Source of the DNA: Candidatus Jorgensenbacteria bacterium
Lineage (GTDB): Bacteria; Patescibacteriota; Minisyncoccia; UBA6257; GWB1-50-10
NCBI GenBank assembly: GCA_030648515.1
Contig: JAUSHK010000003.1
Span: forward strand, 44,710-108,709
Reading direction: 5' to 3'
Length of the DNA: 64,000 nt
The translations under genes and the position numbers were made by a program. The notes below the pieces were generated by a model. That model was not told where the DNA came from. It searched no databases and saw only the letters and a list, made by a program, of their open reading frames with translations. Shown here piece after piece: positions 2,591 to 61,660 of this stretch; position 1 is the first letter of the stretch; the number at the start of each line of letters is the position of its first letter.

Positions 2591-2938
2591 TTATAAATAT
2601 CCGAGAAACGGACGCAGAAGCAGGTAGGGCGGAATGGCAATCCAGACAAGGTAACAAAAAACAGCAAACACAAATACTACTGCGTATACAACGGACGCGA
2701 TAATGAGCCGGAAAAAACGGAATATAAATCCAAGCACGTACCCCGTGATCGTGTAATCACCGTAAAGCGGATGAAATAAAAACCGCGCGGTTACTTTCCA
2801 CGCGAAATGCCGATCAAGCGCCTGAAGCATATCAATTATGAAGTTTGAATATATTCGCACGCTCTTTACATACCAATGGCGGAAAAACTCCGCGATGCGG
2901 TAGAGGGAGCGCTGTCCCAGGTATGTAAGCGTTAGCAT
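2591..2938 (-). CDS. hypothetical small polytopic membrane protein
   Basis: 115-aa ORF, C-terminal half strongly hydrophobic, immediately upstream and co-directional with Clp gene. Confidence 0.4.
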   Translation of the reverse strand: MLTLTYLGQRSLYRIAEFFRHWYVKSVRIYSNFIIDMLQALDRHFAWKVTARFLFHPLYGDYTITGYVLGFIFRFFRLIIASVVYAVVFVFAVFCYLVWIAIPPYLLLRPFLGYL

Positions 2939-2978
2939 TGCTTCAATTATACCTCTTATAATGGGGAGATGTTAATCA

Positions 2979-3085
2979 ATTTCTAATATCTAATTTCTAA
3001 TGTCTAATGAAAATTAAAATGTCTAATGTTTAAACACCCGAAGGGCTTATTAGAAATTAGTAATTAGGTATTAGGTATTTTTATA
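2979..3085. repeat. inverted arrays of CTAAT / ATTAG pentamer repeats (contains AGTAATTAG) flanking a GC hairpin
   Basis: ttctaatatctaatttctaatgtctaatg .. cacccgaagggc .. ttagaaattagtaattaggtattagg. Confidence 0.5.
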
Positions 3086-3776
3086 AGAGCCGCTCTTGCT
3101 CCTGTTCCAATTCCTTGTTTTGTTCCTTGCTAAGTTCCTTGTGCGGCTCTTCGTGAATATGCGGCGCGGCGACAAGCGCATCATATCGCTTGATAATCGC
3201 CGGAAGTTTCTTGAAACTTCCCTTAAGCGCTTCAAGCGTTCCGGTCCCGCGCAGCGCCGCCGCGGGGTGAAATAGTGGGACAATAAGTTTGTCTTTTATT
3301 CGGAACACTTTCCCTTGGTCGCGCGAGATTTTCGCGTCCGGAAGAAAATAGTTCATTGAAAATCTGCCGAGTGGCGCAATTATTTTCGGGTTGATAATTC
3401 GTATCTGTTCTTTCAAATATGGCTTGTACGCCTCAATCTCCTCAGGCAATGGGTCTCGGTTTTCAGGAGGCCTGCGCTTCACAATGTTTGTAATGTAAAC
3501 ATCCTCGCGTTTCCACCCAACCATAATAATGAGCTTGTCCAAAAGCTGTCCCGCTCGCCCAACAAACGGCCGTTTCAGCTGGTCTTCGTGAAACCCGGGC
3601 GCTTCGCCTATAAACATCACATCGCAGTTGATATTCCCCTCCCCAAACACAAGGTTTCCTTCCCGCAACGGAAGATTTTTGTCCTCCACTATTCTTTTTT
3701 CCAAATCTAGAAGAGCTGCTTGTTTTTCCATAAGTGCCCTTATCCAAAGCTTCTCATAACATTGTAAAAACGGCAA
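3081..3776 (-). CDS. uracil-DNA glycosylase, family 4
   Basis: GEAPGFHED..VGRAGQLL motif typical of family-4 UDG. Confidence 0.8.
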   Translation of the reverse strand: MPFLQCYEKLWIRALMEKQAALLDLEKRIVEDKNLPLREGNLVFGEGNINCDVMFIGEAPGFHEDQLKRPFVGRAGQLLDKLIIMVGWKREDVYITNIVKRRPPENRDPLPEEIEAYKPYLKEQIRIINPKIIAPLGRFSMNYFLPDAKISRDQGKVFRIKDKLIVPLFHPAAALRGTGTLEALKGSFKKLPAIIKRYDALVAAPHIHEEPHKELSKEQNKELEQEQERLL

Positions 3777-5372: not shown

Positions 5373-5460
5373 GTATTTATTAGATACCTATGATACAGAA
5401 AAATCAATGGAATAGGAAAAGTATTTACAAGCTAGATATTGTACCTAATTAGTAAACAAG

Positions 5461-5532
5461 TCCCCTCGTGAGGAATCGAACCTCAATTTCCAGCTTCGGA
5501 GGCCAGCGTCCTATCCGTTGAACGACGAGGGG
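5461..5532 (-). tRNA. tRNA-Arg (anticodon CCG)
   Basis: 72-nt cloverleaf folded by hand: acceptor CCCCTCG/CGAGGGG, D-loop with GG, anticodon loop CTCCGAA, T-loop TTCGATT, discriminator A; CCA not encoded. Confidence 0.75.
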
Positions 5533-5584
5533 GGAAGTAACAGTTTCATCTTATACCCAGTGCATTAAAAACGGCAATCATCCG

Positions 5585-5619
5585 TTATTAGTTATAGGTT
5601 ATTTGTTATCAGTTATTCC
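5585..5619. repeat. five tandem 7-mers TTATNNG spanning ligase-gene stop
   Basis: ttattag ttatagg ttatttg ttatcag ttattcc. Confidence 0.5.
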
Positions 5620-14470: not shown

Positions 14471-16150
14471 ATGCCGATTTCAAAATACATTGACGCGCAG
14501 CTTCTAGCACAGCGAAAAATCGCCGAGGAAAACGACGCGAAGCGTCGTGCTGATCAGCTTGGCCTACCCTATTTAGACCTCGTCTCAACGAAGGTCCCAA
14601 CTGAAATTGACGCTATGAAGCTTGTGCCAGAAGAAGACGCGAAGAAAGCACTTCTCGCCCCGCTTCAGCTTATCGGCAAAAAACTCGTGATAGCCGTTTT
14701 TAATCCTGCGGCGCCTACGGCAAAACAAATTCTTGATTCGCTCGCGCAAAATTACGAAGTGCACGCGGTTGTCGCCTCGCGAGCCGGCCTCGCTCACGCG
14801 TGGAGTTATTACCAGTATGTGCAAACCGAAGCAAAAGACATTGCCGGCAAAGTAGAAATTGACGAAACAAATCTGCAAGGCATCACCGCTTCAATTAAAA
14901 GTCTGGACGATGTCCGCGCCGCGATTCAAAATTTCAAAAGCCCGTACGTTTCCCAAATGCTTGAAATTATTTTGGGCGGCGCGCTTGCGCTCAAAGCGTC
15001 TGATATTCACCTTGAACCAAAGGAAGACACGGGGCTTCTCCGCCTTCGTGTTGACGGCATGCTTCATCCGGCATACGAATCATTTTCAAAAACGACCTAT
15101 CACTCAATAATCACGCGCATCAAACTGCTTTCAAACGTAAAATTAAATTTAACTGATCGTCCGCAGGACGGGCGCTTCACAATCGGTCTTAAAGACCGCG
15201 ATATTGAAATCCGTGCCTCACTCATTCCATCGGAATACGGCGAAACAGCGGTGCTCCGCCTCCTAGACCCGCTCTCGCTCAAGGTAAAGCTTGAGGAATT
15301 AGGATGGCGATCGGACGATCTCGAAATTGTAAGGAAAGAAATTGAGAAACCGAACGGGCTCATTTTAAACACCGGCCCCACCGGTTCCGGGAAAACAACG
15401 ACGCTTTACGCGTTTTTGAAACACGTCGTCACGCCTGAAATTAAAGTCATCACTGTTGAGGACCCGATTGAGTACCACTTAGATGGCGTGTCGCAAACAC
15501 AAGTAGACCCGGAAGCTGGCTATACGTTTGCTTCGGGCCTGCGGTCAATCCTACGGCAGGATCCTGACGTGATTCTCGTCGGCGAAATTCGCGACGCGGA
15601 AACCGCCGAGATTGCGATGAATGCGGCGCTCACGGGCCACATGGTATTTTCAACACTTCACACGAATGATGCCGTTGGCGCCATCCCCCGTCTTATAGAT
15701 CTCGGCGCAAAACCGCAGGTAATCGGCCCGGCAGTAAGTTTAATTATTGCCCAGCGTCTTGTGCGCGTTTTGTGCCCGCACTGCAAAGAAAAAATGGAAG
15801 TAAGCGCGGTGGCGAAGAAAAAAATTGAGGAGTTTCTCTCCTCATTGCCGAAGCGAGTGAACAGCGACGGGTATAAAACAATTACCATGGCGAAACCAAA
15901 GGGGTGTGAAAAATGCGGCGGCTTAGGATACCGCGGACGAACATCAATTTTTGAATTATTTGAAGTGACTGAAAATATAGAACAGGCAATTTATCAAAAT
16001 CCGAACGAGATTGAGCTTAAGGTATTGGCAAAGAAACAAGGGATGACTACAATGCAGGAAGATGGAGTGTTAAAAATACTCCAAGGGATTACAAGCAAGG
16101 AGGAGGTGGAGCGGGCAACGGGCCCGATTGAGTGGCTAGTCCTGAGCTAG
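14471..16150 (+). CDS. pilB: type IV pilus assembly / type II secretion ATPase PilB/GspE
   Basis: Walker A GPTGSGKTTT, Asp/His boxes, tetracysteine CPHC..CEKCGG zinc motif. Confidence 0.85.
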   Translation: MPISKYIDAQLLAQRKIAEENDAKRRADQLGLPYLDLVSTKVPTEIDAMKLVPEEDAKKALLAPLQLIGKKLVIAVFNPAAPTAKQILDSLAQNYEVHAVVASRAGLAHAWSYYQYVQTEAKDIAGKVEIDETNLQGITASIKSLDDVRAAIQNFKSPYVSQMLEIILGGALALKASDIHLEPKEDTGLLRLRVDGMLHPAYESFSKTTYHSIITRIKLLSNVKLNLTDRPQDGRFTIGLKDRDIEIRASLIPSEYGETAVLRLLDPLSLKVKLEELGWRSDDLEIVRKEIEKPNGLILNTGPTGSGKTTTLYAFLKHVVTPEIKVITVEDPIEYHLDGVSQTQVDPEAGYTFASGLRSILRQDPDVILVGEIRDAETAEIAMNAALTGHMVFSTLHTNDAVGAIPRLIDLGAKPQVIGPAVSLIIAQRLVRVLCPHCKEKMEVSAVAKKKIEEFLSSLPKRVNSDGYKTITMAKPKGCEKCGGLGYRGRTSIFELFEVTENIEQAIYQNPNEIELKVLAKKQGMTTMQEDGVLKILQGITSKEEVERATGPIEWLVLS

Positions 16151-25767: not shown

Positions 25768-25940
25768 AGTAGTGGTGATAATAGTGTGGATTAGTGGATA
25801 AGTCTATTTTTCTTTTAGTAGTAACGTTTTTCCGTGGCGATTTTTATTGTTGGGTGTTGATAGTGTTGTGTGTAATGTCTAATAAGTTTCATAGGTTGTG
25901 TTAATTGTTCCTAGTTGTTAACAATATAATTAGTACTTAT
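25768..25940. other. candidate chromosomal replication origin (DnaA-box cluster + AT-rich stretch) between dnaA and dnaN
   Basis: TGTGGATtA 25785..25793, aGTGGATAA 25793..25801, TTATCtACA 25923..25931 and AT-rich runs; flanked by dnaA/dnaN and rpmH-rnpA-yidC-jag. Confidence 0.5.
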
Positions 25941-27308
25941 CTACACCTTATTCAAGTTTTCTTTTATAAGAAGAATTTTTTGATTAAGGTTTGAATCTTG
26001 TGTCATCTCTTTTTGTATTTTTTCATACGCGTGAATAACTGTGGTGTGGTCCCGCTTCCCTAGTTTCTCGCCGATATGCGGGTACGACATCTTTAAGAAC
26101 TCACGCATAAGATACATCGCAATCTGTCGCGGTTCAACAACCTCCTGCTTTCTACCCTTGTTTATTAAATCATTTAATGGGATTTCAAAAAAATCAGAAA
26201 CAGATTTCAAGACGTCATTTGCTGTAATGTTTTTAGTGGAAACAGTGCTTGTCTCTTGGATAATTTCATCAACTTTTTTAATATCAATCTTTTTATTCTT
26301 GCATTGCTGGAAAAACGCGATTTTATTTAAGACCCCATCAAGCTCGCGTATGTTTTTCTGAACTTTAGCGGCAATGTGCTCAGTAACAGCATCCTCAATA
26401 TCAAGTCCTTGGTTCTGAATCTTTGTTTTAAGTATTGCAAGTCGCATCTCATAGTCCGGGTACGTGATATCGGCAATCATGCCCCCCTCAAAGCGGGATC
26501 GTAGGCGTTCTTCTAGTGTTGGAATCGCTGCCGGGGGCCTATCAGAGGAAAGAATAATCTGCTTGTTGTTTTCATGGAGGGCGTTAAAGGTGTGAAAGAA
26601 CTCAAGTTCTGTAGCCGGTTTCCCGCCGATAAATTGAATGTCGTCAATAATAAGGACGTCAACGTCGCGGTGTTTCTTCTTCATGTCCTCCATCCGCTTA
26701 TTCCGCACTGACCAGACGACATCATTGATGAATTTCTCGGAAGTTGTGTAAAGGACATTTACCTTCCCGCTGTATTTCTCGTGAATCGCGTTTCCAACAG
26801 CTTGCATAAGATGCGTTTTCCCGAGTCCGACGCCGCCGTAGATAAAGAGCGGGTTATACTTTTTTCCGACATCATTAACAACGGCTTGAGCCGCGGCATG
26901 GGCGAGTTCATTTGAGGACCCAATGATATATGAAGCAAATGTATATTTGGGGTTAAGGTTCGTTCGCGGGTCAACTCTTGATTCAACGAGCGGTAATTGC
27001 GGCTTTCCTAAATCCTCGGTCTTTTTAGCTTTCGCACATTGTATCTGATTTGGCGTACCGCTAATCACGGTGTAGTTTACTGATCGCACCGAAGTGTCAA
27101 AGTTTCTGAGGGACCCAAGGATAAGTTTGTGATACCGGTTTTTCACCCACTCTTTTGCAAAATTATTCGGCAGGCCGACAAGCGCTACGCCGTCCTTCTC
27201 ATTCTTTCCCATGAGCTGGCTGTTCTTAAGCCATGTAAGAAAGTTCGGCCGTGAAATTTGAACCTCAACTTCTCCTAAAACATTTTGCCAAAGCTCGTTG
27301 TGGTCCAT
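25941..27308 (-). CDS. dnaA: chromosomal replication initiator DnaA
   Basis: AAA+ Walker A GGVGLGKTHL, C-terminal DnaA-box binding HTH (IAMYLMRE..HTTV). Confidence 0.9.
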   Translation of the reverse strand: MDHNELWQNVLGEVEVQISRPNFLTWLKNSQLMGKNEKDGVALVGLPNNFAKEWVKNRYHKLILGSLRNFDTSVRSVNYTVISGTPNQIQCAKAKKTEDLGKPQLPLVESRVDPRTNLNPKYTFASYIIGSSNELAHAAAQAVVNDVGKKYNPLFIYGGVGLGKTHLMQAVGNAIHEKYSGKVNVLYTTSEKFINDVVWSVRNKRMEDMKKKHRDVDVLIIDDIQFIGGKPATELEFFHTFNALHENNKQIILSSDRPPAAIPTLEERLRSRFEGGMIADITYPDYEMRLAILKTKIQNQGLDIEDAVTEHIAAKVQKNIRELDGVLNKIAFFQQCKNKKIDIKKVDEIIQETSTVSTKNITANDVLKSVSDFFEIPLNDLINKGRKQEVVEPRQIAMYLMREFLKMSYPHIGEKLGKRDHTTVIHAYEKIQKEMTQDSNLNQKILLIKENLNKV

Positions 27309-31538: not shown

Positions 31539-32219
31539 TTATTGAACCATTAATTTCGCACGACCGTTCGCAAATTCCGCAAGGTTACTTTGATTTTGAA
31601 CTGTTCCCGTTATGCGCAGTGTTTGCTGTCCGGACGTCTGAAGCGCCCCAAGTTTTAAAGACAATGCATTGTCCCCGGTTGATTGCTGACGGGTATCATT
31701 AATTTGCCAGAAAAAAATAAGGTCGTTGAGTGAGGAGTTTGTAAAAAAGTACGGAATAGATTTCAAAAATATGTCGCTCTGTGCTTGCACAATACCATTT
31801 GGATATGGCGCTTCAATCACGACTCGCGGCGCCGTGATTGGAATTTGGAGAGATGTTACGAGCGTCCCCTCTGCGCGCTCAATTTCTGCCCGTATGGTGT
31901 GCGTTCCGCTGTCTTTCTGCCGAGCCGTGAACGTTACACTCTTTTTCCCGTGCCCCTCACTCACAAAATTATCATCAAGGTACCACGCGATATTAGAGCC
32001 GCTAATGTTTAAGAATTTCCCTCCGCGCACTACTTCAACGAGCGCTGTCACGGGCGTGCCGGGAGTTACGAGCGGTTTCCCTAGAAAATTCGCCGGATAA
32101 AAATTGTTCGCTTCCCATGTAATAATGACCTGGTCAGTTGTTTGCGCAAGAGCAGTTTGAACAAGTGTAGCGACCGCAAGTATTGCTAAAATAACAATGG
32201 TAAAACGTGCTAAATTCAT
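31539..32219 (-). CDS. hypothetical secreted protein
   Basis: cleavable-type signal peptide (..ALA/QT), beta-rich 200-aa domain. Confidence 0.4.
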   Translation of the reverse strand: MNLARFTIVILAILAVATLVQTALAQTTDQVIITWEANNFYPANFLGKPLVTPGTPVTALVEVVRGGKFLNISGSNIAWYLDDNFVSEGHGKKSVTFTARQKDSGTHTIRAEIERAEGTLVTSLQIPITAPRVVIEAPYPNGIVQAQSDIFLKSIPYFFTNSSLNDLIFFWQINDTRQQSTGDNALSLKLGALQTSGQQTLRITGTVQNQSNLAEFANGRAKLMVQ

Positions 32220-32251: not shown

Positions 32252-32563
32252 TCACGTCTTCTCATGTGGCGCCGCGCGATTATGCATAATCGCGCTGACG
32301 ACAAACACAACAAACGTTGTTGGTATCACAGGAAGTATATTCGCGGCGTACTTAGCTATTTGTCTCCCGATCTTTTTTGAGTCGGCGTCTCCCTTGTTTT
32401 TAAACCAAAACCACGTTGCCGCAGTCACGCCCGCTTGTATAAGCGGGCTCACAATAATGCCGATAGCAAATGCGTCGAGAATCCCGCAAGCAAAGTCAAT
32501 AAAGAACGTGACTAATCCCCCAATAAGGATTTCGGCCTCCGAAAACTTTTTATACTCGCCCAT
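32252..32563 (-). CDS. small 3-TM membrane protein (possible VirB3-like accessory)
   Basis: 103 aa, three hydrophobic segments, directly upstream neighbour of VirB4-like ATPase. Confidence 0.35.
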   Translation of the reverse strand: MGEYKKFSEAEILIGGLVTFFIDFACGILDAFAIGIIVSPLIQAGVTAATWFWFKNKGDADSKKIGRQIAKYAANILPVIPTTFVVFVVSAIMHNRAAPHEKT

Positions 32564-32566
32564 CGA

Positions 32567-34324
32567 TTATTGCTTTTCAATCCCCTTCATCTCGAGCATT
32601 TGCTCCGGATTTGTCGTGATAATCTGGTCCTCGGTGTACGACGCAATAACCTTAAGCGCGACGTGTTTCAATCCAGCGAAGAAAAGCCCTTCGCCGACGT
32701 TTGCTTCAAGGAGAAACGCCTTCTCGCCTTCCGTAAGGCCGAATGTCTGCGCGACCGGCGCGATGCTCGCGGGTGATTGTTTCATAAGAAGCTGGAGCGA
32801 AGAGTTTGTAATGATTGGCCGGCCGTAGTCCGACTTAATGAAATCCTCAACGTCTTGCGTAATCGTTGTAATGCCGAGATAGTATTTGCGCGAGCGTTTT
32901 ACGAGACCAAAGAGGAACGCCGCGCTGTCCTTATACTTCATCATCCACCACGCCTCATCAATGACGAGGATTCTTGGTTTTAGCTGCGAGCGGATGAGGT
33001 TCCAGACGAAGTTTAAAACAATATACATTGCAATCGGCCGCAACTCTTCCTCAAGATCGCGGATTGAAAAAACAATCAGGCGGTTTTTAACATCAACATT
33101 GGTCGGGGCATTCGTAAATCCGGCGTATGAGCCGTTCACGAACTTTTCAAGCCGCTGGCCGATTCCGCGCCCGCCCTCGGTGTTTTGAAGAATTGTCTGG
33201 AGGTCTCCCAAAAGCGGCGGATTAAGCTCTTTCATTGAGCCGAAATTTTCCGCCGTAATGTCGCGCGAGGCATAGGTTTCTGTAATCACGCGGTCAAGGA
33301 TCGCGTCCTCCTCGGGCGTTACGACTCCCAGCATAAGTTTTACAAGGCCGGTAAGGTTCAAGATGTGGGATTTAAACACGTCCGCCGGCTCCTCCCCTTC
33401 CGGTATCACTGGAATATCAAACGGGTTGATGTGGCTCTCGGACGTAAGAGAAATTTTAAAGTAGCTGCCGCCGATCGCGTTTGAAAGATTTTCATACTCA
33501 TTCTCGGGGTCAATGATGATTACGTCATTCCCGAGCATGAGCGATCGGAGAATTTCAAGCTTTGTTGCGTATGATTTCCCGGCACCTGCTTTCGCGAACA
33601 CAACCTGGTTCGCGTTTTCAAGCGAGAAGCGGTCAAAGATGACAAGTCCGTTATTGTGAAGATTTATCCCGTAAAGAATGCCCTTGTCCGATGAAAGATT
33701 TGGCGAGACAAATGGAAAAAGAGACGACGCAGGTCCCGAATTGAGGGGCGTGTGAATCTGAATCTGGTCCTGATTCAGCGGGAGGACCGAATTAAATCCC
33801 TCAATCTGGCGGAAAAGCGCTGGCTTTATGTAGACAAGCTTGCTTTCTAAAACGTTTTCAACGGTGTGCTCAAGCCGGTTTAATTCCTCAATGCTTGCGC
33901 CATAAAACGTGATATAAACCCCGACTTTAAAAAGATGTTCTTGTGCTTGCATCAGCATATCGCGAAGATTCTCTACGTCTTCCTGCGCGGTTTCAAGCGC
34001 CGGGTCGCGCACAAGCCCTTTCTCCTCCTTTTCTGAAAGTTCCACCTCAATTTGCGTAATTTTCTTTTTAAGGCCGCGAAGCGCGAGCGCTGTGTCCATT
34101 GGGTGTATGAAAATTGAGATGTCCATCATTTGCGCCATATTAATAATAGGAGAGAACCACCCGCTTGATATGTATCGCGGATAAGTGAAGATGAAGACGG
34201 TTTTCGCGTAGTAATCGCCGATTTTAAGATAGTTCGAGCTTACCTCAAGGCCGGCGGGGGCGATAATATTTGGAATGTCTTCCTCGGGAGACGCTTTGTA
34301 AGCTTTCGGAATTTTAATATCCAT
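32567..34324 (-). CDS. VirB4/TrbE-like (Gram-positive type) conjugation/secretion ATPase
   Basis: Walker A AKAGAGKSY, Walker B ILVIDEAWWM, N-terminal region with conserved hydrophobic block typical of VirB4-family. Confidence 0.7.
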   Translation of the reverse strand: MDIKIPKAYKASPEEDIPNIIAPAGLEVSSNYLKIGDYYAKTVFIFTYPRYISSGWFSPIINMAQMMDISIFIHPMDTALALRGLKKKITQIEVELSEKEEKGLVRDPALETAQEDVENLRDMLMQAQEHLFKVGVYITFYGASIEELNRLEHTVENVLESKLVYIKPALFRQIEGFNSVLPLNQDQIQIHTPLNSGPASSLFPFVSPNLSSDKGILYGINLHNNGLVIFDRFSLENANQVVFAKAGAGKSYATKLEILRSLMLGNDVIIIDPENEYENLSNAIGGSYFKISLTSESHINPFDIPVIPEGEEPADVFKSHILNLTGLVKLMLGVVTPEEDAILDRVITETYASRDITAENFGSMKELNPPLLGDLQTILQNTEGGRGIGQRLEKFVNGSYAGFTNAPTNVDVKNRLIVFSIRDLEEELRPIAMYIVLNFVWNLIRSQLKPRILVIDEAWWMMKYKDSAAFLFGLVKRSRKYYLGITTITQDVEDFIKSDYGRPIITNSSLQLLMKQSPASIAPVAQTFGLTEGEKAFLLEANVGEGLFFAGLKHVALKVIASYTEDQIITTNPEQMLEMKGIEKQ

Positions 34325-34352
34325 GTAAATAATTAGTAATTAAGGGTTAATG

Positions 34353-34994
34353 CTATTGTTTTCGCGTGGCCTCCAAATTTTTCTTTTCGGTAAGCTGCGG
34401 ATTGTAGAGATTGTAAAAAAGCTCGACCATTTCATCGTCCGCGAGTTCAGCTGTCCGAAGCCCGATTTGCCCAAGGCCGCTAGTGACTTGCGACACCCTC
34501 TGCTCAAGCTGTTCTGCGTTTTCTTTTTCGGTATTCTCCTTTTGTTTCTGATTTGGTTTTTGTCCAAGGACTCCGCTTAAGAAACCGCGCGCTTCAGAAA
34601 CAAGAATAAGTGGCTCGTACGGGACGATTACAAAGAAAGCCTTATCAATAATAGCGTTTTGCTCGACAAATGACTTAATGAACTCAACATATTCCGCAAT
34701 CTGGATTTTGAGGAGTTCATTTGTTTCCTCGTTTTTACGCGCAAGCATGCGCTCAAGATAACTCTCAATATTCACTTTCCTTGAATGGATGAAAAATTGT
34801 ATTGGGAAGTCAAGTCCGTTCAGAAAATTCTGGAACGTACCGAGAATCATTTCCTGTTCTTCCTCTGATTTGAGATCGAAATTAATTCCGCTTACAATTA
34901 AAATTTTTCGCAGCCCGCCCTTTTTTAAATAGACGATGCTGTTTTTAACCTCTTTAATTTCTACGAATTTTTGCGTCGGCAAAGATGGCTCCAT
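34353..34994 (-). CDS. hypothetical cytoplasmic protein of T4SS-like operon
   Basis: 213 aa, no TM; no recognisable motif. Confidence 0.4.
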   Translation of the reverse strand: MEPSLPTQKFVEIKEVKNSIVYLKKGGLRKILIVSGINFDLKSEEEQEMILGTFQNFLNGLDFPIQFFIHSRKVNIESYLERMLARKNEETNELLKIQIAEYVEFIKSFVEQNAIIDKAFFVIVPYEPLILVSEARGFLSGVLGQKPNQKQKENTEKENAEQLEQRVSQVTSGLGQIGLRTAELADDEMVELFYNLYNPQLTEKKNLEATRKQ

Positions 34995-35006
34995 GTGTTT
35001 ATTATA

Positions 35007-35489
35007 TTAGTAATCTATGCGCTTTGCCACAACTTTTTCTCCGGTTATCCGCGTAACGACCTGAAGTCGCTCCCCCGAGGATTCCTTGCTCTCGGTAAAT
35101 ATTTTTCCCGTTGCGATATTCATAGTAATAGATTTCAACTTTTCCTGGATGCTCATCGTGTTCCGCACTGCCTTAATCCGCTCAATATCGGAAACGTCAA
35201 CGTCTTTTGATATTCTCTGCCACGTGTAGACGCGCGGCTGCCACATATATGAGAGTCCAGAGAGAAGTGCCTGCGTGGCGTCTTGCCCATTGATTTTTAT
35301 AAACGCGAGCGCCGCGGCGGCTCCGCCCACGATAATCGTAATCAAAATCCAGAAAAACATGTTGAAAATGTTATATGAGATAACACTAATAAGGAACGCG
35401 CCCGCGATAAAGAAAAACTGCCGGAGCGTAAGTGGTCCGATGATTTTTGCCTTTTCTTCAATGAATTGTGGGACTTGGAATGTTGCCAT
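35007..35489 (-). CDS. 2-TM membrane protein (possible PrgI/VirB3-like)
   Basis: 160 aa, two adjacent TM helices near N-terminus then soluble tail. Confidence 0.35.
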   Translation of the reverse strand: MATFQVPQFIEEKAKIIGPLTLRQFFFIAGAFLISVISYNIFNMFFWILITIIVGGAAAALAFIKINGQDATQALLSGLSYMWQPRVYTWQRISKDVDVSDIERIKAVRNTMSIQEKLKSITMNIATGKIFTESKESSGERLQVVTRITGEKVVAKRIDY

Positions 35490-35490
35490 G

Positions 35491-36459
35491 TTATTGCTTG
35501 AGATTTACGATGTTGCCGTCTAAAAGTACACCCCCTTTCATTGTATCCTCTCCTTGTTTTTGAGGCGAACTTATTTGTTGCGCGGGTAATGGAGCCGGAA
35601 TCGGCGAGATTGGCGGAACTGGCGCGTTAGGCGCCTTAATTGACTGCGGCGCGGAGCTTGGAGCCGCTCCACGGGCACCTCCGCCGAAAGTTTCTAGATT
35701 AATAAACTCCCCTCCGCGCGACACTGGAGAAATCGGCGTGCGGAATTCGCTGTAGTGCACTACGCGCTTATCCTGAGCGGAGCCGAAGGATTTCTCCGGC
35801 TGTGGCTTGCTCTGAACTTGCCGATTTTCGTCAGGCGCCTCGATTTTGGCTTTTACCGGATTTTGTATTTCTTGCGGCGTGATTTTTTGCGCGAAGAAAC
35901 TGAATGATTTAGAAAGGTCCTTGAACGGAACTTTTGTACGTTCACTTGCGCCGGGTCCGAGTGGGCGCATCTCGTGAAGAATAAGCGGCGCGCCTTCCTC
36001 GCCCATCGTTTGTTTTGAGGCACCTTCGCGGATTGGTATTTGGGCTGTCTTTTCTTCGGATCTTTTTCCCTGAGCGGGAACATTTTGCAATAAACTTCCT
36101 CCCTGACGCGAAAGTGCTAACTCTTCATCAGCTGGCATATATATCTGCGCGAGGTCGCTTTTTACGGGGTTGAAAATTTCAGAAGCGAGCTCGTTTGAAA
36201 GCGCGGTCGCATGCTCAAAGTTCATATAAAGCCGGTCAACAAGTTCCTGCTTCAAGTCGCGCATATCAAGAAATCCAAGGAGCACGAGCCCGACGAGCTG
36301 TTCAAGAAGTCCGATTTTCTCGCGGCTCAAGTAATGCGATTTTCCAATTTGTGTTACAAGTTTTTCCGTGTGTTCGCTCGCAAGTAATTCCTGAATATGC
36401 TCAGGTAACGTATCAAATCGGTCTGAAATAATTTCTTGTGTGAGAAGTGAGTAATCCAT
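35491..36459 (-). CDS. hypothetical protein with Pro/Ala-rich disordered C-terminus
   Basis: 322 aa, structured N-terminal ~120 aa, low-complexity remainder. Confidence 0.4.
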   Translation of the reverse strand: MDYSLLTQEIISDRFDTLPEHIQELLASEHTEKLVTQIGKSHYLSREKIGLLEQLVGLVLLGFLDMRDLKQELVDRLYMNFEHATALSNELASEIFNPVKSDLAQIYMPADEELALSRQGGSLLQNVPAQGKRSEEKTAQIPIREGASKQTMGEEGAPLILHEMRPLGPGASERTKVPFKDLSKSFSFFAQKITPQEIQNPVKAKIEAPDENRQVQSKPQPEKSFGSAQDKRVVHYSEFRTPISPVSRGGEFINLETFGGGARGAAPSSAPQSIKAPNAPVPPISPIPAPLPAQQISSPQKQGEDTMKGGVLLDGNIVNLKQ

Positions 36460-36462
36460 ATA

Positions 36463-38514
36463 TTACACCGTGTTTGGAGGTATTGTATTGCCGCTTTGGC
36501 CCTGTCCTGGCTGTTGCTGACTTTGTGTTGGGCTTGTTGAGGCGGTAGGTGGTTGTTGTGATTGTCCGCGTCTATTTCTCCCAGTGACCCCCATTGCCTT
36601 ATTCATGGCGCCTTGTTCTTTGTCTTTTTGAACCGCTACACTCGCATACGTCTTTATCCTAAAGTTGAGATCAGTAAGCGCTCCTTCTGTTTCCTTAAAT
36701 TTCTTTTTTGCGGTAGCTTTATCAGTCTTAGAAGCTTTCTCATCATCTTTAACCCTATCCCAATCCGCTTTAGCGGCACTAAATTCGCTTTGTAATTCGT
36801 TTTGTCCCTTGTTTTTCTTGCCATTATCATCAGTAAACCCATCAATAATCTTCTTAAGATTTGCATTTACTTCATCCATCCCCTTGCCTCCTAAATCTAC
36901 ACGAATCTCGTTCTCAATAATTCTATTGAGTTCTCCTTTTAGCCGTTTAACATCTGTATCAATTCCCATAACTTCTTTTGAATCCTCCTTGTATCCCGCC
37001 TGTATCATATTTTCCTTGAGATTTTCCCTTGTTTTAATATCTTCCGTAATTTCCCCCTTGGATTTTCTTTCTTGCGGTTTTTCTTCTTTCTTTTCAATAG
37101 CTCCGATACTTTCAAGACCACCTCTTGTAAGTATTCCGATTATGCCCTTAGCCTTAATATCCGGCGCTTTTGCGAGGTCCTGCATTGTCTTAGCCCGTCC
37201 GGAAAGCAGTTCCCCTGTTGCACCACTCAAGGAAGAAAATCCAGTGGCCTTAGTGGCAACATTGGCCGCGCGCTTACTCCAACGTTTCATAAATCCATCA
37301 TCCGGTTTCACCTTCCAATAATCACCAGCGACTCCTTGTAGTGCCTTGCCGCCGCCCTGAAGCCTTTTTGCAACATTCTGTCCAAACCTAGTCCGTGCCG
37401 TTGCTTGAGTGCTGCGGCGCGCAATATTCCCCGCCCATTTTTTTGTGCTGTTTCCAAGGCTTTGTGCCGCGCCGAGCGCTGCCTTTGCACCAGTAGCTCC
37501 CATCGACTGTGCTGTTATAAGCCCCATCATGAGGATGCCGCACAACACAATCAAATTAAGGCCATTAGAAATAGTTTCTCGTATAGCGCCAAGCGCTGTT
37601 CCGCCAACTATGCCCGTTGGAGGGTTTTCTGCAAACTGCTGTGCGGCGACAACCGCCAAGTAAACAAAGAACGACATTGCCGGAGCAAATAATAACTGCT
37701 CAGTAAACTTTTTCCACCACTTACTCCAGTGTTCGGAAAGCGCAGGAAACGCGAGTGTGAGGCACGCCATCGGCGCGAGAATCAATAAAACAGAAAGATA
37801 AAGATATCTTGCAAGGAGCATGAATGCAAACCCAAGCATCGTAATCGCGGCAATCATTGTAAACGCGACATTGAATACGAGCGTGGTAAGTCCCACAAGC
37901 ACCGCTGTTCCAAATGTCGCAAGTCCGCCCCCTTGTTCCGCGGGATCCGGCGGTGGCGGGTCGGCTGGCGGCGTAAGAAACTTCTGCGGGTTTATAACCC
38001 TTCCTATCGTGTCGGATAATAGAAGGCTGGTACCCTCAGGGACGGTTCTTCTGATAAAGAATTTTGTGAGAACATTCGAAAACTGGATGAGTGAGCCGGC
38101 GATGGTGAGCGAGAAATTCACAAGAATCGCGACTGCTATGAGTTTTCCGAGAAGTTTATTATTGCCGTAGCTCTGGTATCTTACGATGGTTGCGATGGCG
38201 ATGATAATCGCAAGGAGCACAAAGCCGAGGTTCGCAAGGTCGCGGGTGATTGTCCACCCTATCTGCACTACTTTATTGGTGGAATTTAAAATATCAAAGT
38301 TCAACTGAAGCGCGATATCAACAAGCCACCCTCCTAAAATGAGAAGCGCTCCGGAAATAAAATTAAAGAGGTACCCAATGTAATAGAAAAAACCGCCGAC
38401 AATTTCCGAGGTGCTCCATCCTAGCGCGCTCGCCTGATGCGGGATAATAAATACGATAAATGATACAAAGAAAACTGTGAAAAGTATTTTTTTGTTGAAA
38501 AATTTCATGAGCAT
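36463..38514 (-). CDS. VirB6/TrbL-like polytopic membrane protein with long charged/Q-P-rich C-terminal tail
   Basis: N-terminal signal-like segment, >=5 TM helices over ~450 aa, then K/E-rich coiled-coil-like and Gln/Pro-rich terminus. Confidence 0.55.
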   Translation of the reverse strand: MLMKFFNKKILFTVFFVSFIVFIIPHQASALGWSTSEIVGGFFYYIGYLFNFISGALLILGGWLVDIALQLNFDILNSTNKVVQIGWTITRDLANLGFVLLAIIIAIATIVRYQSYGNNKLLGKLIAVAILVNFSLTIAGSLIQFSNVLTKFFIRRTVPEGTSLLLSDTIGRVINPQKFLTPPADPPPPDPAEQGGGLATFGTAVLVGLTTLVFNVAFTMIAAITMLGFAFMLLARYLYLSVLLILAPMACLTLAFPALSEHWSKWWKKFTEQLLFAPAMSFFVYLAVVAAQQFAENPPTGIVGGTALGAIRETISNGLNLIVLCGILMMGLITAQSMGATGAKAALGAAQSLGNSTKKWAGNIARRSTQATARTRFGQNVAKRLQGGGKALQGVAGDYWKVKPDDGFMKRWSKRAANVATKATGFSSLSGATGELLSGRAKTMQDLAKAPDIKAKGIIGILTRGGLESIGAIEKKEEKPQERKSKGEITEDIKTRENLKENMIQAGYKEDSKEVMGIDTDVKRLKGELNRIIENEIRVDLGGKGMDEVNANLKKIIDGFTDDNGKKNKGQNELQSEFSAAKADWDRVKDDEKASKTDKATAKKKFKETEGALTDLNFRIKTYASVAVQKDKEQGAMNKAMGVTGRNRRGQSQQPPTASTSPTQSQQQPGQGQSGNTIPPNTV

Positions 38515-38525
38515 TCAGGAAGCGC

Positions 38526-40520: not shown

Positions 40521-41330
40521 TTAAAGTTTGCTAAGTGTATTTTGAAATGACGCGAGTAACTGTTCCTCATTATTTACCGCATCCGAAAGTCCTTGAAGCG
40601 CGGCAAGCGGTTTTAAACTATCTTGATTGCCATCAAGGACAGCTTTTCCTAGCTCGTAGCGCTCGTTCCACGCGTTTATAAAATCAAGATGAAACGAGGC
40701 GAGATTAGGCGGCGCGGTAATCGCAAGAAGATCAGTGATTTGGTCAGAAGTCGTAGTTAGATAGCCCTGAAGCTTTTCCGCGCTCTGGTTTATAACAGCA
40801 TCAGCGACCATCGCTAAGTATTGGTCATCCTGTCCGTGAAAATTTTTTATGTACGTGTTTTGGATATTTTTAAGATACGCGAGCGCGGCTTCCTTACTGA
40901 AATCGTTTGAGATTTTTATATCTTTTGTTTCGTAGTGTTTTATTGCAATACCACGAGAAAGTTCGTCGCTTATAATATTGCCCAGCGTCGCCTCATTCGG
41001 CACGGTGATTGGAGAGCTTGTGCCCACGCCAAACTTATTTGCATTAAAAATTTCCTGCTGATAGCGCTGAATAACCCGCTCGGTAATACTATTAGGATTT
41101 TGCTGTACCGCGGAATCGGTGTTGGTCGCGACCACGCTTGAAGTCGCAAAACGTCCAGAATCAACTCCGGACCGGATGATTTCAAAAAGCGACGCAACGT
41201 TCCCGGTTTTGGACTTTGAATTTACAATCCAGAATGAAATCCCTGCTCCGATAAGAACAATAAAAATTGCAATGACAAACCGCCTGTTTTGAAACATTTT
41301 TGTCCTCTTATTATACACTATCGCGGGCAA
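40521..41330 (-). CDS. bitopic membrane protein (candidate VirB8-like scaffold)
   Basis: single TM near N-terminus, ~220-aa extracytoplasmic domain; overlaps rsmA 3' end by 20 nt. Confidence 0.35.
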   Translation of the reverse strand: MPAIVYNKRTKMFQNRRFVIAIFIVLIGAGISFWIVNSKSKTGNVASLFEIIRSGVDSGRFATSSVVATNTDSAVQQNPNSITERVIQRYQQEIFNANKFGVGTSSPITVPNEATLGNIISDELSRGIAIKHYETKDIKISNDFSKEAALAYLKNIQNTYIKNFHGQDDQYLAMVADAVINQSAEKLQGYLTTTSDQITDLLAITAPPNLASFHLDFINAWNERYELGKAVLDGNQDSLKPLAALQGLSDAVNNEEQLLASFQNTLSKL

Positions 41331-44627: not shown

Positions 44628-44865
44628 CCCGTTAGAGAAAGGAAGCGCCTTACGCGATTCCTAACGTTATTACTCGAACCTTTTTGTTTAAAATCAAACC
44701 TAGTACACCAATTATATCAGAAAGGGCGCTTCCGTATTTGCTAGGTATAATAAATATATTATTTTTAATCTTTGTTATTTTATGAAACATATGCTTTAAA
44801 CATTGCCTTCTCTAACGGGATTCATTATTTCCAGTATATCATGCCGAAAATGCTCTGCAAGATAC

Positions 44866-44904
44866 AAGAAAGCGGCACTATTTAGGCCGCTTTCTTTGTT
44901 TCTT
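44866..44904. terminator. strong 11-bp-stem rho-independent terminator
   Basis: aagaaagcggc/gccgctttctt stem, 9-nt loop, T-rich 3' on plus strand; also serves minus-strand gene ending at 44929. Confidence 0.6.
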
Positions 44905-44928
44905 AATACTAAATACTAGATACTTTCT

Positions 44929-51769: not shown

Positions 51770-51843
51770 CGGCCTTTTGTGTAGAGTTAGGATACAATTT
51801 TATTCATGGTATAAATTAGTAGTAGTGCTAACTTTCTAAAATA

Positions 51844-51872
51844 CTCCCTTGTTAACAGCAAGGGAGTTTTTA
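51844..51872 (+). terminator. rho-independent terminator
   Basis: stem ctcccttg/caagggag, then TTTTTATT. Confidence 0.65.
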
Positions 51873-51957
51873 TTAGTAAATTCTACTATTTCAGTTGCGC
51901 CATAAAATACCGCATTTTTCCTAGGTTTTCTACATAATAACACCAATTTTTCGCTGT

Positions 51958-51986: not shown

Positions 51987-52037
51987 ATGACCAGTTATTA
52001 AACAATTAAAAACTCTAATTTAAGAAAGGAAAAATCA

Positions 52038-56735: not shown

Positions 56736-56775
56736 TAGGGGTAGTAATTAGAAATTAGGAATTAGTAATTAACAG
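56736..56775. repeat. AGTAATTAG-family motif array immediately upstream of SBP/pilin-like operon
   Basis: ggggtagtaattagaaattaggaattagtaattaac. Confidence 0.5.
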
Positions 56776-61560: not shown

Positions 61561-61650
61561 GCAGGTAATTAGCAATTAGTAAATAGTAATTAGGAAATAA
61601 AAAGAATTGCCACTAGTCGTTGGATAATTCGATTAATTACTAATTACCAA
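61561..61650. repeat. AGTAATTAG-family motif arrays (direct and inverted) upstream of ftsH
   Basis: ggtaattagcaattagtaaatagtaattagg ... taattactaattacc. Confidence 0.5.
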
Positions 61651-61660
61651 TTTCCATTTT

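What the first reader, a model, noticed from the sequence alone, without database searches (positions are those of the whole stretch)
2979..3085. Recurrent intergenic motif family AGTAATTAG / TAATTAGTA in direct and inverted arrays at several gene boundaries
Seen: AGTAATTAG or one-mismatch variants occur at 3059..3067 (with inverted CTAAT x5 array 2983..3030 around a GC hairpin agcccttcgggtg), 5449..5458, 25908..25916 (inside the oriC candidate), 34328..34343 (directly upstream of the VirB4-like gene), 56743..56772 (x2, directly upstream of the SBP/pilin-like operon) and 61564..61593 (x3) plus inverted copies at 61634..61648 (upstream of ftsH). A specific 9-mer is expected less than once by chance in 64 kb. 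Inference: a cis-regulatory site for an unknown DNA-binding protein, or a promoter/UP-like element peculiar to this organism. The copies flank both accessory operons.
Basis: seen in the sequence. Interest (0 to 1): 0.5.

Follow-up and report, generated by a model that had tools for sequence, protein, structure and literature searches.

The report
Phased 7-bp ATTAG repeat palindromes between genes
The recurring AGTAATTAG motif is real: it is the unit of short 7-base tandem arrays, often in inverted pairs, that fill gaps between genes in this and many other Patescibacteria, and they behave like generic gene-end repeat elements, not like a switch for particular operons.

Summary
The motif is the unit of tandem 7-bp arrays with an invariant ATTAG core, usually (T)AATTAG, and 1-2 variable bases. 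Arrays have 3-5 units, lie only between genes, and exceed chance even against shuffles of the AT-rich intergenic DNA.

The window has:
- one full inverted pair, (CTAATNN)4-loop-(ATTAGNN)4, at 2976-3079
- a split pair around the ftsH −10 box, 61564-61655
- a single 4-unit array at 56740-56772
- a 2-unit array at 34330-34343
- three isolated units

The window is Patescibacteria (Paceibacteria-like). The paired architecture recurs in Saccharibacteria genomes and in at least 120 metagenome stretches. In those contigs, period 7 outnumbers every other tandem period 5- to 200-fold, with many different cores.

The paired elements start about 10 nt after a stop codon and end about 15 nt before the next start. 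They are depleted from divergent (promoter-only) spacers, have unrelated neighbour genes and show no strand bias. Syntenic relatives lack them in the same spacers.

Best reading: REP-like gene-end palindromes built from heptads, not operon-specific regulatory sites. Function is inferred, not shown. This is a new variant of the known but unexplained class of bacterial intergenic heptanucleotide repeats.

The parts
2976..3008 (.). Left arm of the full palindromic element. Four exact CTAAT units at 2983, 2990, 2997 and 3004 (period 7), plus one degenerate outer unit (TCAAT, 2976-2980).
3023..3027 (.). A fifth CTAAT unit, 19 nt inward of the main left arm.
3035..3046 (.). Small GC hairpin (CCC-GAA-GGG) at the apex of the palindrome. 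On the sense (minus) strand it reads GCCCUUCGGGU followed by GUUU.
   Evidence: read from the sequence
3049..3079 (.). Right arm. Four exact ATTAG units at 3049, 3056, 3063 and 3070, plus a terminal partial unit (ATT). With the left arm it folds into an imperfect hairpin of about 30 bp on either strand: −23.2 kcal/mol on one strand and −25.5 on the other, z −4.9 and −4.2.
2946..2975 (-). Sigma-70-like promoter, TTAACA-18 nt-TATAAT (11 of 12 matches). It directly abuts the element. The TATAAT lies 7 nt before the ATG of ORF 2591-2938, a leaderless-type arrangement.
56740..56772 (.). Single array: GGTAGTA ATTAGAA ATTAGGA ATTAGTA ATTAA. It starts 30 nt after the gyrA stop codon (56803) and ends 7 nt before the ATG of the SBP gene (56735). 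On the sense strand it reads (CUAAUUN)4, contains no G, has no SD sequence and shows no significant secondary structure.
61564..61593 (.). Array TAATTAG CAATTAG TAAATAG TAATTAG. It starts 5 nt after the rpsA stop codon (61559).
61623..61628 (+). GATAAT −10-like hexamer between the two ftsH-proximal arrays. It aligns with the TGGGATAAT −10 box of the TTGAC-N17-GATAAT ftsH promoter in relatives. The window has no good −35 box.
61634..61655 (.). Inverted array TTAATTA CTAATTA CCAATTT C that runs up to the ftsH ATG (61661). It can pair with 61564-61593 (−18.1 kcal/mol, z −2.0).
34330..34343 (.). Two units (TAATTAG TAATTAA) in the 28-nt spacer inside the T4SS-like operon, 5 nt before the ATG of the TraG/VirB4-like gene (34324).
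5445..5454 (.). Isolated palindromic unit CTAATTAGTA, next to tRNA-Arg.
25927..25935 (.). Isolated unit TAATTAGTA, 6 nt from the end of ORF 25941-27308.
51813..51821 (.). Isolated unit AAATTAGTA, in the spacer 51770-52037.

Best explanation
**What it is (well supported)**
- The motif is the unit of tandem 7-bp (heptad) arrays: an invariant ATTAG pentamer plus two variable bases, 3-5 units per array.
- Arrays stand alone or as an inverted pair, (CTAATNN)n-loop-(ATTAGNN)n, about 75 nt long.
- This is the local family of a class of heptad-phased extragenic repeats that are abundant in Patescibacteria.

**How it most likely works (inferred)**
- It works like the REP/BIME/REPIN elements of proteobacteria. 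It is a generic, dispersed, fast-evolving palindrome that occupies the DNA just downstream of genes and is kept out of promoter regions.
- When transcribed, the paired form folds into a long AU-rich interrupted stem-loop between cistrons or at gene ends. There it could attenuate transcription or protect the upstream mRNA from 3' exonucleases.
- Any array of three or more units places a stop codon in all six reading frames, TAG on one strand and TAA on the other. This follows directly from the sequence.
- The phased, invariant pentamers with free spacers, and the fixed C..A orientation, suggest that a protein also reads the arms on DNA.
- It is not a gene-specific regulatory site.
For: **Real and phased**
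- establish the excess over chance and the 7-bp period.
- The window has 6 period-7 arrays and none at periods 5, 6 or 8-11.

**A general class**
- In 773 kb of related contigs, with the selected elements masked, 219 arrays have period 7. Other periods (5, 6, 8-11) give 1-22.
- A detection method that treats all positions alike gives 227 arrays at period 7 against 1-45 at other periods.
- Cores are diverse, ATTAG is the commonest, and 33% of arrays have an inverted partner.

**Recurring architecture**
- The paired form occurs in Saccharibacteria genome contigs L072 (three copies in 8 kb) and L102.
- Arms have 4 ± 1 units, the median loop is 24 nt and the median element is 75 nt.
- Hairpins fold at −23 to −27 kcal/mol with z −4 to −7.

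**Gene-end position**
- None lies inside an ORF. Paired elements sit a median 9-11 nt after the upstream stop and about 15 nt before the next start.
- 17% of convergent and 14% of co-directional spacers carry an array, against 6-7% of divergent spacers, which are twice as long (Fisher p 0.006 and 0.02).
- Window locus 1 has exactly the order stop codon, palindrome, strong promoter, next gene.

**Generic, not gene-specific**
- Neighbour genes are unrelated.
- The arrays are absent from the orthologous spacers of syntenic relatives.

**Features pointing to a DNA-level element**
- Unpaired arrays show no strand bias: 27 read CTAAT and 23 read ATTAG on the sense strand.
- The sense strand does not fold better than the antisense strand: −25.8 against −27.1 kcal/mol.
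- The C..A arrangement outnumbers A..C 13 to 1 in the Patescibacteria-like loci.
- A sub-family keeps four units, TTTTG, a 21-nt variable loop, CAAAA and four units at many loci.
Against: - No experiment or transcript data were available, so the function is inferred from position and shape only.
- The stems are AU-rich and no canonical U-tract follows. The terminator scan finds nothing at the three loci. T enrichment after the stem is modest, 4.2 of 10 positions.
- Many co-directional cases leave only about 15 nt before the next start codon. That is too short for a promoter, so these copies cannot be full terminators.
- The two spacer bases show no register-specific complementarity: 45% Watson-Crick in register against 49-50% in shifted registers.
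- The unit numbers of the two arms are not correlated.
- Single, structure-less arrays exist, for example 56740-56772.
- No REP-type transposase or other candidate binding protein was identified. Copy number per genome could not be measured from 64 kb.
- The many different cores in the same contigs argue against a single sequence-specific reader for the whole class.
- Gene calls in the related loci are my own crude longest-ORF calls.
Confidence: 0.45

Rival explanations
1. The arrays are non-adaptive by-products of mutation. Polymerase slippage favours 7-nt units, as Mrazek et al. 2007 proposed for heptanucleotide repeats. Template switching then creates inverted copies. The arrays persist wherever they do no harm and are purged from promoters and coding DNA.
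For: - Period 7 dominates whatever the core sequence.
- Control pentamers also give abundant heptad arrays in other collections.
- Turnover is fast: the arrays are absent from the orthologous spacers of relatives.
- There is no strand bias, no spacer covariation, no arm symmetry and no gene association.
- Tandem Repeats Finder sees 14-nt double units at 94-100% identity, consistent with slippage.
- Depletion from divergent spacers can be explained by selection against disrupting promoters.
Against: - Only 17% of arrays are perfect repeats, and unit number peaks at 4 instead of decaying geometrically.
- Variation is concentrated in two adjacent positions: 0.588 against 0.557 ± 0.008 simulated, a modest effect.
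- The same ATTAG core and the same C..A architecture recur in classes as distant as Saccharibacteria and the Paceibacteria-like window.
- A sub-family keeps a precise layout at many loci.
- C..A outnumbers A..C 13 to 1.
Confidence: 0.25
2. The arrays are operators or architectural sites for an oligomerising DNA-binding protein that reads one pentamer per 7 bp. The model is the ribbon-helix-helix omega repressor, which binds runs of 7-bp heptads in direct and inverted orientation. The protein would act as a repressor, roadblock or insulator.
For: - The pentamers are invariant and phased, with free 2-nt spacers, 3-5 units per array and both direct and inverted arrangements.
- The preferred relative orientation is fixed.
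- There is no strand bias.
- Arrays abut the −35 box at locus 1 and flank the −10 box at the ftsH locus.
- The omega precedent for heptad operators is in PMC4627068 and PMC9499535.
Against: - No ribbon-helix-helix or other candidate regulator was found among the 20 small or unannotated ORFs of the window that were scanned.
- Neighbour genes are unrelated.
- Arrays are depleted where only promoters lie.
- Position is not conserved among relatives.
- Many other cores share the same heptad layout in the same contigs.
Confidence: 0.15
3. In the CUAAUUN orientation directly upstream of a start codon, the array is an SD-independent translation leader. It would be G-free, unstructured and bound by ribosomal protein S1. 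This is what was proposed for the TAACTGA heptamer repeats of Beggiatoaceae.
For: - All three window arrays that touch a start codon read (C/U)UAAUUN on the sense strand. These are the VirB4-like gene, the SBP gene and ftsH. All three lack G and lack an SD sequence.
- Only 9 of 62 window genes have an SD-like tetramer.
- The TAACTGA repeats have the same position and the same lack of ribosome-binding sites (PMC4679880).
Against: - Across related loci, unpaired arrays show no orientation bias relative to the genes: 27 against 23.
- In the paired elements it is the G-containing ATTAG arm that faces the next start codon.
- Relatives translate the same genes without the arrays.
Confidence: 0.08
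4. The array is a binding site on RNA for a ring-shaped attenuation protein of the HutP or TRAP type. (AUUAGNN)n equals UAG-N4 repeats, which is the HutP site geometry.
For: The UAG-N4 geometry is met at 61564-61593 and in the right-hand arms (read from the sequence). That HutP sites have this geometry is from my own knowledge.
Against: - Orientation relative to transcription is random.
- Half of all arrays read CUAAU on the sense strand.
- More than the UAG is conserved.
- No HutP or TRAP homologue was seen among the window proteins scanned.
Confidence: 0.03

Closest known systems
REP / BIME / REPIN extragenic palindromes of proteobacteria
   Same: - Short, imperfect palindromes confined to extragenic DNA.
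- Located after stop codons, between co-directional or convergent genes, and avoiding promoter regions.
- Occur as singlets and as inverted doublets with variable loops.
- Neighbour genes are unrelated, and turnover between relatives is fast.
   Different: - The arms here are tandem 7-bp units with a phased invariant pentamer, not one 20-35-nt conserved sequence.
- There is no GTAG head.
- No RAYT transposase was identified, and copy number per genome is unknown.
- Neither mobility nor any of the REP functions has been shown.
Intergenic heptanucleotide tandem repeats: LSSR (Mrazek 2007), cyanobacterial STRR, and TAACTGA repeats of Beggiatoaceae, cyanobacteria and Bacteroidetes (MacGregor 2015, PMC4679880)
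   Same: - 7-nt tandem units, strictly intergenic, 2-6 copies.
- Often within a few nt of a start codon that lacks an SD sequence.
- Patchy distribution across phyla, and function unknown.
   Different: - A different heptamer.
- Units are not identical: a conserved pentamer plus variable bases.
- Most TAACTGA sets are direct and face forward, whereas these are commonly inverted pairs with no strand bias.
- The host lineage, Patescibacteria, is not covered by those studies.
GGGAATC heptamer repeats of Xanthomonas (Rehm 2015, PMC4692102)
   Same: - Intergenic heptamer arrays, some arranged as inverted repeats able to form stem-loops.
- Length and sequence vary between close relatives at the same spacers.
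   Different: Those are G-rich and can form quadruplexes. ATTAG arrays cannot form G-quadruplexes.
Omega (ribbon-helix-helix) repressor operators and parS of plasmid pSM19035
   Same: Runs of contiguous 7-bp heptads in direct and inverted orientation, with cooperative binding that needs at least 2-4 units.
   Different: - The heptad sequence differs: WATCACW there.
- The omega sites sit on the regulator's own promoters, on a plasmid.
- Here there is no regulator gene, and the arrays avoid promoter-only spacers.
Intrinsic (Rho-independent) terminators
   Same: A stem-loop a few nt after a stop codon, sometimes followed by a promoter, as at locus 1.
   Different: - The stems are AU-rich and interrupted, about 28 nt per arm.
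- There is no consistent U-tract.
- The window also has canonical GC-rich terminators, for example upstream of 46200.

Membership tests
Intergenic heptanucleotide tandem repeats (LSSR / STRR / TAACTGA class) | Head-to-tail units of 7 nt | tested here: met
   - Tandem Repeats Finder calls period 7 at five places.
- The ATTAG starts are 7 nt apart.
Intergenic heptanucleotide tandem repeats (LSSR / STRR / TAACTGA class) | More or longer arrays than chance allows | tested here: met
   - The three-unit pattern gives 12 matches against 0.18 expected.
- The window has 6 period-7 arrays and 0 at periods 5, 6 and 8-11.
Intergenic heptanucleotide tandem repeats (LSSR / STRR / TAACTGA class) | Located in non-coding DNA | tested here: met
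   - AATTAGTA occurs 8 times in 7 intergenic regions and 0 times in coding DNA.
- No paired element lies inside an ORF.
Intergenic heptanucleotide tandem repeats (LSSR / STRR / TAACTGA class) | Units identical or nearly so (simple-sequence repeat) | tested here: inconclusive
   - Units share the pentamer but differ at 1-2 positions.
- Tandem Repeats Finder reports 81-87% matches.
- Only 17% of related arrays are perfect.
TAACTGA repeats specifically | Unit sequence TAACTGA | tested here: not met
   - The unit here is NAATTAG.
- One unrelated array at 5584-5616 contains a single TAACTGA-like unit.
REP / REPIN elements | Extragenic imperfect palindrome, found as singlets and inverted doublets, and excluded from promoter regions | tested here: met
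REP / REPIN elements | Many dispersed copies per genome with a shared arm sequence | tested here: inconclusive
   - The 64-kb window has 4 arrays plus 2 short or degenerate ones.
- L072 has 3 paired elements in 8 kb.
- No whole genome was available.
REP / REPIN elements | An associated RAYT (IS200/IS605-type Y1) transposase and a conserved GTAG head | not tested
   - Only 30 of the 62 window ORFs were scanned against Pfam, and none was a transposase.
- No GTAG head is visible in the sequence.
Intrinsic terminator | GC-rich stem followed by a U-tract | tested here: not met
   - No terminator-like site was found at any of the three loci.
- T enrichment after the stem is weak.
Omega / ribbon-helix-helix heptad operator | At least 2 contiguous 7-bp units in direct or inverted orientation | tested here: met
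Omega / ribbon-helix-helix heptad operator | Heptad WATCACW, a cognate ribbon-helix-helix gene, and sites on that gene's own promoter | tested here: not met
   - The heptad sequence is different.
- No ribbon-helix-helix Pfam hit was found among the small ORFs scanned. The rest of the genome was not available.
HutP / TRAP RNA sites | (U/G)AG triplets at fixed spacing on the transcribed strand | tested here: not met
   The geometry fits one orientation only, and orientation relative to the genes is random, 27 against 23.
MITE | Terminal inverted repeats around a conserved internal sequence, with target-site duplications | tested here: not met
   - Loops differ completely between copies in the same contig.
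- No duplications were seen.
Any described RNA family (Rfam 15) | Match at the gathering score | tested here: not met
   Only tRNA and tmRNA reach threshold. The element gives sub-threshold matches to microRNA-precursor hairpins.

The most novel reading that the evidence does not exclude
Patescibacteria carry an undescribed, lineage-wide system. An oligomerising protein reads ATTAG pentamers phased every 7 bp on two head-to-head arms, always in the CTAAT...ATTAG orientation. It would act at gene ends as a protein-dependent bidirectional terminator, insulator or chromosome-organising site. The other heptad cores would be read by paralogues or through DNA shape.
Probability: 0.15. Interest if true: 0.7.

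Novelty: new variant of a known kind. Interest (0 to 1): 0.5.

Why it matters
Intergenic heptanucleotide repeats have been noted in cyanobacteria, Bacteroidetes, Beggiatoaceae and Xanthomonas for decades without an accepted function. Here they appear as a very clean signal in the tiny, compact genomes of Patescibacteria, where little DNA is expected to be idle.

- Period 7 outnumbers every other tandem period many-fold.
- The pentamer is conserved and phased, the paired orientation is fixed, and the elements sit at gene ends.

If the elements are functional, they would be a main punctuation mark of transcription units in a major, poorly understood bacterial radiation. Saccharibacteria can be cultivated and manipulated genetically, so the question becomes testable.

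If they are purely mutational, they are a strong case for a 7-nt slippage bias. They are also a practical nuisance for motif discovery in these genomes.

Tried and rejected
- **Plain AT-richness.** Rejected by shuffling the intergenic DNA alone.
- **Regulon or operator of the accessory operons.** Rejected: the arrays are absent from the orthologous spacers of relatives, neighbour genes are unrelated, and arrays are depleted from divergent spacers.
- **Regulator encoded nearby.** A Pfam scan of 30 window ORFs found no ribbon-helix-helix, HutP or similar protein.
- **Known RNA family.** None found.
- **Canonical terminator.** None found at the loci.
- **MITE.** Rejected because the loops are not conserved.
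- **Covariation test for a hairpin.** The spacer bases pair no better in register than out of register. The arm lengths are not correlated. The sense strand does not fold better than the antisense strand. These tests neither prove nor exclude a hairpin, because the invariant cores pair in every register.
- **Conservation of pentamers between orthologous elements.** Abandoned, because every related locus was itself selected by a pattern that required exact pentamers.
- **Is ATTAG special across all bacteria?**
  - The genome scan returned more than 120 loci from many phyla, mostly perfect microsatellites such as cyanobacterial ATTAGTC.
No comparison is therefore possible and no claim is made.
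- **Viral contigs.** They contain no paired element.
- **The window's own genome.** Only a 7-kb Logan contig shares it, so genome-wide counting was not possible.
- **Literature.** A search for the exact repeat strings found nothing relevant.
Full report
**1. The observation**

The region 2976-3079 reads (NNCTAAT)x4, then a further CTAAT, a small CCC-GAA-GGG hairpin, and (ATTAGNN)x4. The pentamer starts are exactly 7 nt apart: 2983, 2990, 2997 and 3004 on the left, 3049, 3056, 3063 and 3070 on the right.

The same 7-bp unit, usually (T)AATTAG, forms several other arrays:
- four units at 56740-56772
- four units at 61564-61593
- an inverted run at 61634-61655
- two units at 34330-34343

Isolated units lie at 5445, 25927 and 51813.

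The statistics:
- The exact 9-mer alone is weak: 3 matches against 0.36 expected, and 2 of 100 shuffles reach 3.
- With one mismatch there are 30 matches against 12.2 ± 3.6 expected.
- The three-unit heptad pattern gives 12 matches against 0.18 expected.
- AATTAGTA occurs 8 times in 7 different intergenic regions and never in 59.5 kb of coding sequence.
- Shuffling only the intergenic DNA (36% GC) gives 0.5 copies, and none of 2000 shuffles reaches 8.

The coordinates are right except for 25908-25916, where nothing matches, and for some undercounted copy numbers.

**2. Context in the window**

Pfam identifies the flanking genes:

| Locus | Upstream gene | Downstream gene |
|---|---|---|
| 1 (2976-3079) | UDG (3081-3776, minus strand) | 115-aa ORF (2591-2938, minus strand) |
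| 2 (56740-56772) | gyrA | solute-binding protein gene heading a T4SS-pilin cluster |
| 3 (61564-61655) | rpsA (S1) | ftsH |
| 34330-34343 | ORF 34353-34994, weak sub-threshold TraC match (T4SS-like operon) | TraG/VirB4-like ATPase |

So the arrays sit next to housekeeping genes as much as next to accessory genes.

- **Locus 1.** A near-consensus promoter, TTAACA-18 nt-TATAAT, begins exactly where the element ends. Its −10 box lies 7 nt before the ATG. The order is stop codon, palindrome, promoter, leaderless gene.
- **ftsH locus.** Relatives have a TTGAC-N17-GATAAT promoter. The window keeps only the GATAAT (61623-61628), and it lies between the two arrays.
- **Arrays that touch a start codon.** All three read (C/U)UAAUUN on the sense strand, have no G and have no SD sequence.
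- **Folding.** The paired locus 1 folds into a hairpin of about 30 bp on either strand, at −23.2 and −25.5 kcal/mol (z −4.9 and −4.2). Locus 3 folds weakly (z −2.0). The single array at locus 2 does not fold.

**3. Who carries this**

The best FtsH hits are Patescibacteria, at 80% identity to a 'Patescibacteria group' MAG and about 70% to Jorgensenbacteria and Brennerbacteria MAGs.

Three syntenic relatives share the gene order T4SS pilins, SBP, gyrA, lactamase_B, rpsA, ftsH. They lack ATTAG arrays in the rpsA-ftsH and gyrA-SBP spacers. One relative, L122, has degenerate ATTGNNN/ATTAGGT heptads in the opposite orientation before the SBP gene. The arrays are therefore evolutionarily labile.

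- Most hits are perfect microsatellite-like arrays in cyanobacteria (ATTAGTC, next to the classical STRR heptamers), Bacteroidota, Planctomycetota and others.
- The Saccharibacteria, 'Patescibacteria group' and Peribacteria hits look like the window, with a fixed ATTAG and variable NN.
- The paired (CTAATNN)n-loop-(ATTAGNN)n architecture is present three times in 8 kb of Saccharibacteria contig L072 and once in L102.

IMG/VR has none.

**4. A general heptad phenomenon**

I masked the selected elements in the 773 kb of metagenome loci and counted tandem arrays by period:

| Detection method | Period 5 | 6 | 7 | 8 | 9 | 10 | 11 |
|---|---|---|---|---|---|---|---|
| At least 3 units sharing a 5-mer | 1 | 7 | 219 | 18 | 22 | 5 | 10 |
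| Position-neutral detection | 45 | 28 | 227 | 11 | 8 | 1 | 1 |

- Cores are diverse. ATTAG is the commonest (36 of 204), followed by related AATT-centred cores such as AATTACC/GGTAATT and CCAATT.
- Only 17% of arrays are perfect repeats, and 33% have an inverted partner with the complementary core within 130 nt. The usual size is 3-5 units.
- In the window itself, period 7 gives 6 arrays and periods 5, 6 and 8-11 give none. Without the ATTAG loci, period 7 is no longer special there.

**5. Anatomy and context of the paired elements**

There are 119 distinct paired elements.
- Arms have 4 ± 1 units, the median loop is 24 nt and the median element is 75 nt.
- None lies inside an ORF. Of 92 with both flanks, 67 are between co-directional genes, 18 between convergent genes and 7 between divergent genes.
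- The element begins a median 9-11 nt after the upstream stop, sometimes supplying that stop itself. It ends about 15 nt before the next start.

Counted per spacer:

| Spacer type | With a paired ATTAG element | With another (non-selected) heptad array | Mean length |
|---|---|---|---|
| Convergent | 17% | 17% | 111 nt |
| Co-directional | 14% | 14% | 105 nt |
| Divergent | 6% | 7% | 199 nt |

Fisher tests of convergent against divergent give p = 0.006 for the paired elements and p = 0.02 for the other arrays.

Further findings:
- Neighbour genes form no recurrent family.
- After the last pentamer the sequence continues NN-ATT-T. A true U-tract is not the rule: 4.2 T in 10 positions.
- The two spacer bases are 45% Watson-Crick complementary in register. 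That is above the 30% seen after shuffling between elements, but no better than the 49-50% in registers shifted by one unit.
- Unpaired arrays between co-directional genes read CTAAT on the sense strand 27 times and ATTAG 23 times.
- The sense strand does not fold better than the antisense strand: −25.8 against −27.1 kcal/mol, with 28 elements favouring sense and 38 favouring antisense.
- In the Patescibacteria-like loci the C..A arrangement outnumbers A..C 13 to 1. The two are thermodynamically the same duplex.
- One sub-family keeps four units, TTTTG, a 21-nt variable loop with a small CGG/CCG stem, CAAAA and four units, at many loci in several genomes.

**6. Interpretation**

Shown:
- The family is real, phased and strictly extragenic.
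- It sits at gene ends and is not gene-specific.
- It turns over fast and is widespread in Patescibacteria.
- Any array of three or more units carries TAG in all three frames of one strand and TAA in all three frames of the other.

Inferred:
- It works like REP/BIME/REPIN elements. These are generic palindromes tolerated, or used, just downstream of genes.
- When transcribed, the paired form gives intercistronic or 3'-terminal stem-loops that could attenuate transcription or stabilise mRNA.
- The phased pentamers are possibly read by a protein on DNA. Pointers to this are the lack of strand bias, the lack of a sense-strand folding advantage and the fixed orientation.

I put 0.45 on this reading. 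Of that, the classification is secure and the function is not.

The main rival is a non-adaptive origin, through 7-nt slippage plus template switching, with purging from promoters and genes (0.25). It explains the diversity of cores, the turnover and the negative covariation tests. It does not easily explain the recurrence of one core and one orientation across distant classes, the peak at four units, or the precisely conserved sub-family.

The remaining rivals:
- A sequence-specific operator for an omega-like heptad binder (0.15) fits the geometry. It does not fit the context, the lack of gene association or the absence of a candidate protein.
- An SD-independent leader, as proposed for TAACTGA repeats (0.08), fits the three start-proximal arrays of the window. 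It does not fit the orientation statistics elsewhere.
- A HutP-like RNA site (0.03) fails on orientation.

**7. Comparison with what is known**

- Heptanucleotide repeats are the commonest long simple repeats in many bacteria, according to Mrazek 2007 as summarised in PMC4679880 and PMC4692102.
- TAACTGA repeats lie just upstream of start codons that lack ribosome-binding sites, in Beggiatoaceae, cyanobacteria and Bacteroidetes.
- GGGAATC repeats in Xanthomonas include inverted pairs and vary between close relatives.
- None of these papers covers Patescibacteria, the ATTAG unit or the paired pentamer-plus-spacer architecture.
- A full-text search for the repeat strings, and for heptamer repeats in Patescibacteria, found nothing. 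Rfam has no matching family.

I therefore rate it a new variant of a known, still unexplained kind.

**8. Caveats**

- Gene calls in the related loci are simple longest-ORF calls.
- The metagenome loci were chosen by the pattern itself, so conservation of the pentamers among them cannot be used as evidence.
- The taxonomy of the metagenome contigs was not determined.
- Only 64 kb of the source genome is available.

Noticed in passing
window 5584-5616: A second heptad family: GTTATTA GTTATAG GTTATTT GTTATCA GTTAT, five units with a conserved GTTAT and variable last two bases. On the minus strand it ends 6 nt upstream of a TTGCCG-16 nt-TATAAG promoter-like site for tRNA-Arg (5460-5532). It contains one TAACTGA-like unit.
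   Followed up: partly
window 44905-44924; 41782-41813; 41929-41957: Further short period-7 arrays: AATACTA x3 in the 44628-44928 spacer, and GTAGTGA (14-nt double unit, 100% identical) and CATAATT inside ORF 41311-42093. Whether that ORF is real was not checked.
   Followed up: no
window, all 62 ORFs: Only 9 of 62 ORFs have an SD-like tetramer at −18 to −4. Thirteen have a −10-like hexamer (at least 5 of 6 matches to TATAAT) ending 5-10 nt before the start codon. Examples are ORFs 2591-2938, 14471-16150, 31539-32219, 34353-34994 and 54535-55002. This suggests frequent leaderless or very short-leader mRNAs.
   Followed up: partly
window 63544-63616: ARAGORN calls a tRNA-Ile with anticodon TAT. 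Most bacteria read AUA with a lysidine-modified CAU tRNA, so a UAU tRNA-Ile is uncommon.
   Followed up: no
window 32252-40505 and 53657-56735; L122, L123, L126: - A T4SS-like gene set: a TraG/VirB4-like ATPase, a weak sub-threshold match to TraC, and a PrgI-like protein.
- A cluster of four T4SS-pilin genes headed by a solute-binding protein gene directly downstream of gyrA.
- The pilin-SBP-gyrA-rpsA-ftsH order is conserved in relatives.
   Followed up: partly
L132, L143, L147, L150, L172 (two copies), L176, L181, L183: A sub-family of the paired element with a fixed layout: four CTAAT units, TTTTG, a 21-nt variable loop with a small CGG/CCG stem, CAAAA and four ATTAG units. Its loop length (29 nt) is the commonest, found in 23 of the 127 matches before de-duplication to 119 distinct elements.
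   Followed up: partly
metagenome loci L127-L246: - The CTAAT...ATTAG (C..A) orientation of paired arrays outnumbers ATTAG...CTAAT 13 to 1 outside the selected elements, although both give the same duplex. The window's ftsH pair (61564-61655) is of the rare A..C type. This is unexplained.
- Some of these 13 may be duplicates of selected elements that lie in near-identical loci.
   Followed up: partly
metagenome loci: In several cases the upstream ORF ends in the first TAA of the array itself (gap of −4). The array therefore supplies the stop codon.
   Followed up: no
L122 5064-5175 and window 3033-3048: The gyrA-SBP spacer of the closest relative carries a GCCCTTCGGG hairpin followed by TTTTT, a canonical terminator. 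Almost the same GCCCTTCGGG hairpin sits at the apex of the window's locus 1 palindrome.
   Followed up: no
L017 (uncultured Clostridia MAG), L010 (Poriferihabitaceae MAG): Non-Patescibacteria contigs with many ATTAGCA or ATTAGGA arrays, each preceded by a GC-rich hairpin. An example is CTTACTTGCTTCGCAAGA + (ATTAGCA)4, repeated in tandem. This looks like a different composite repeat.
   Followed up: no
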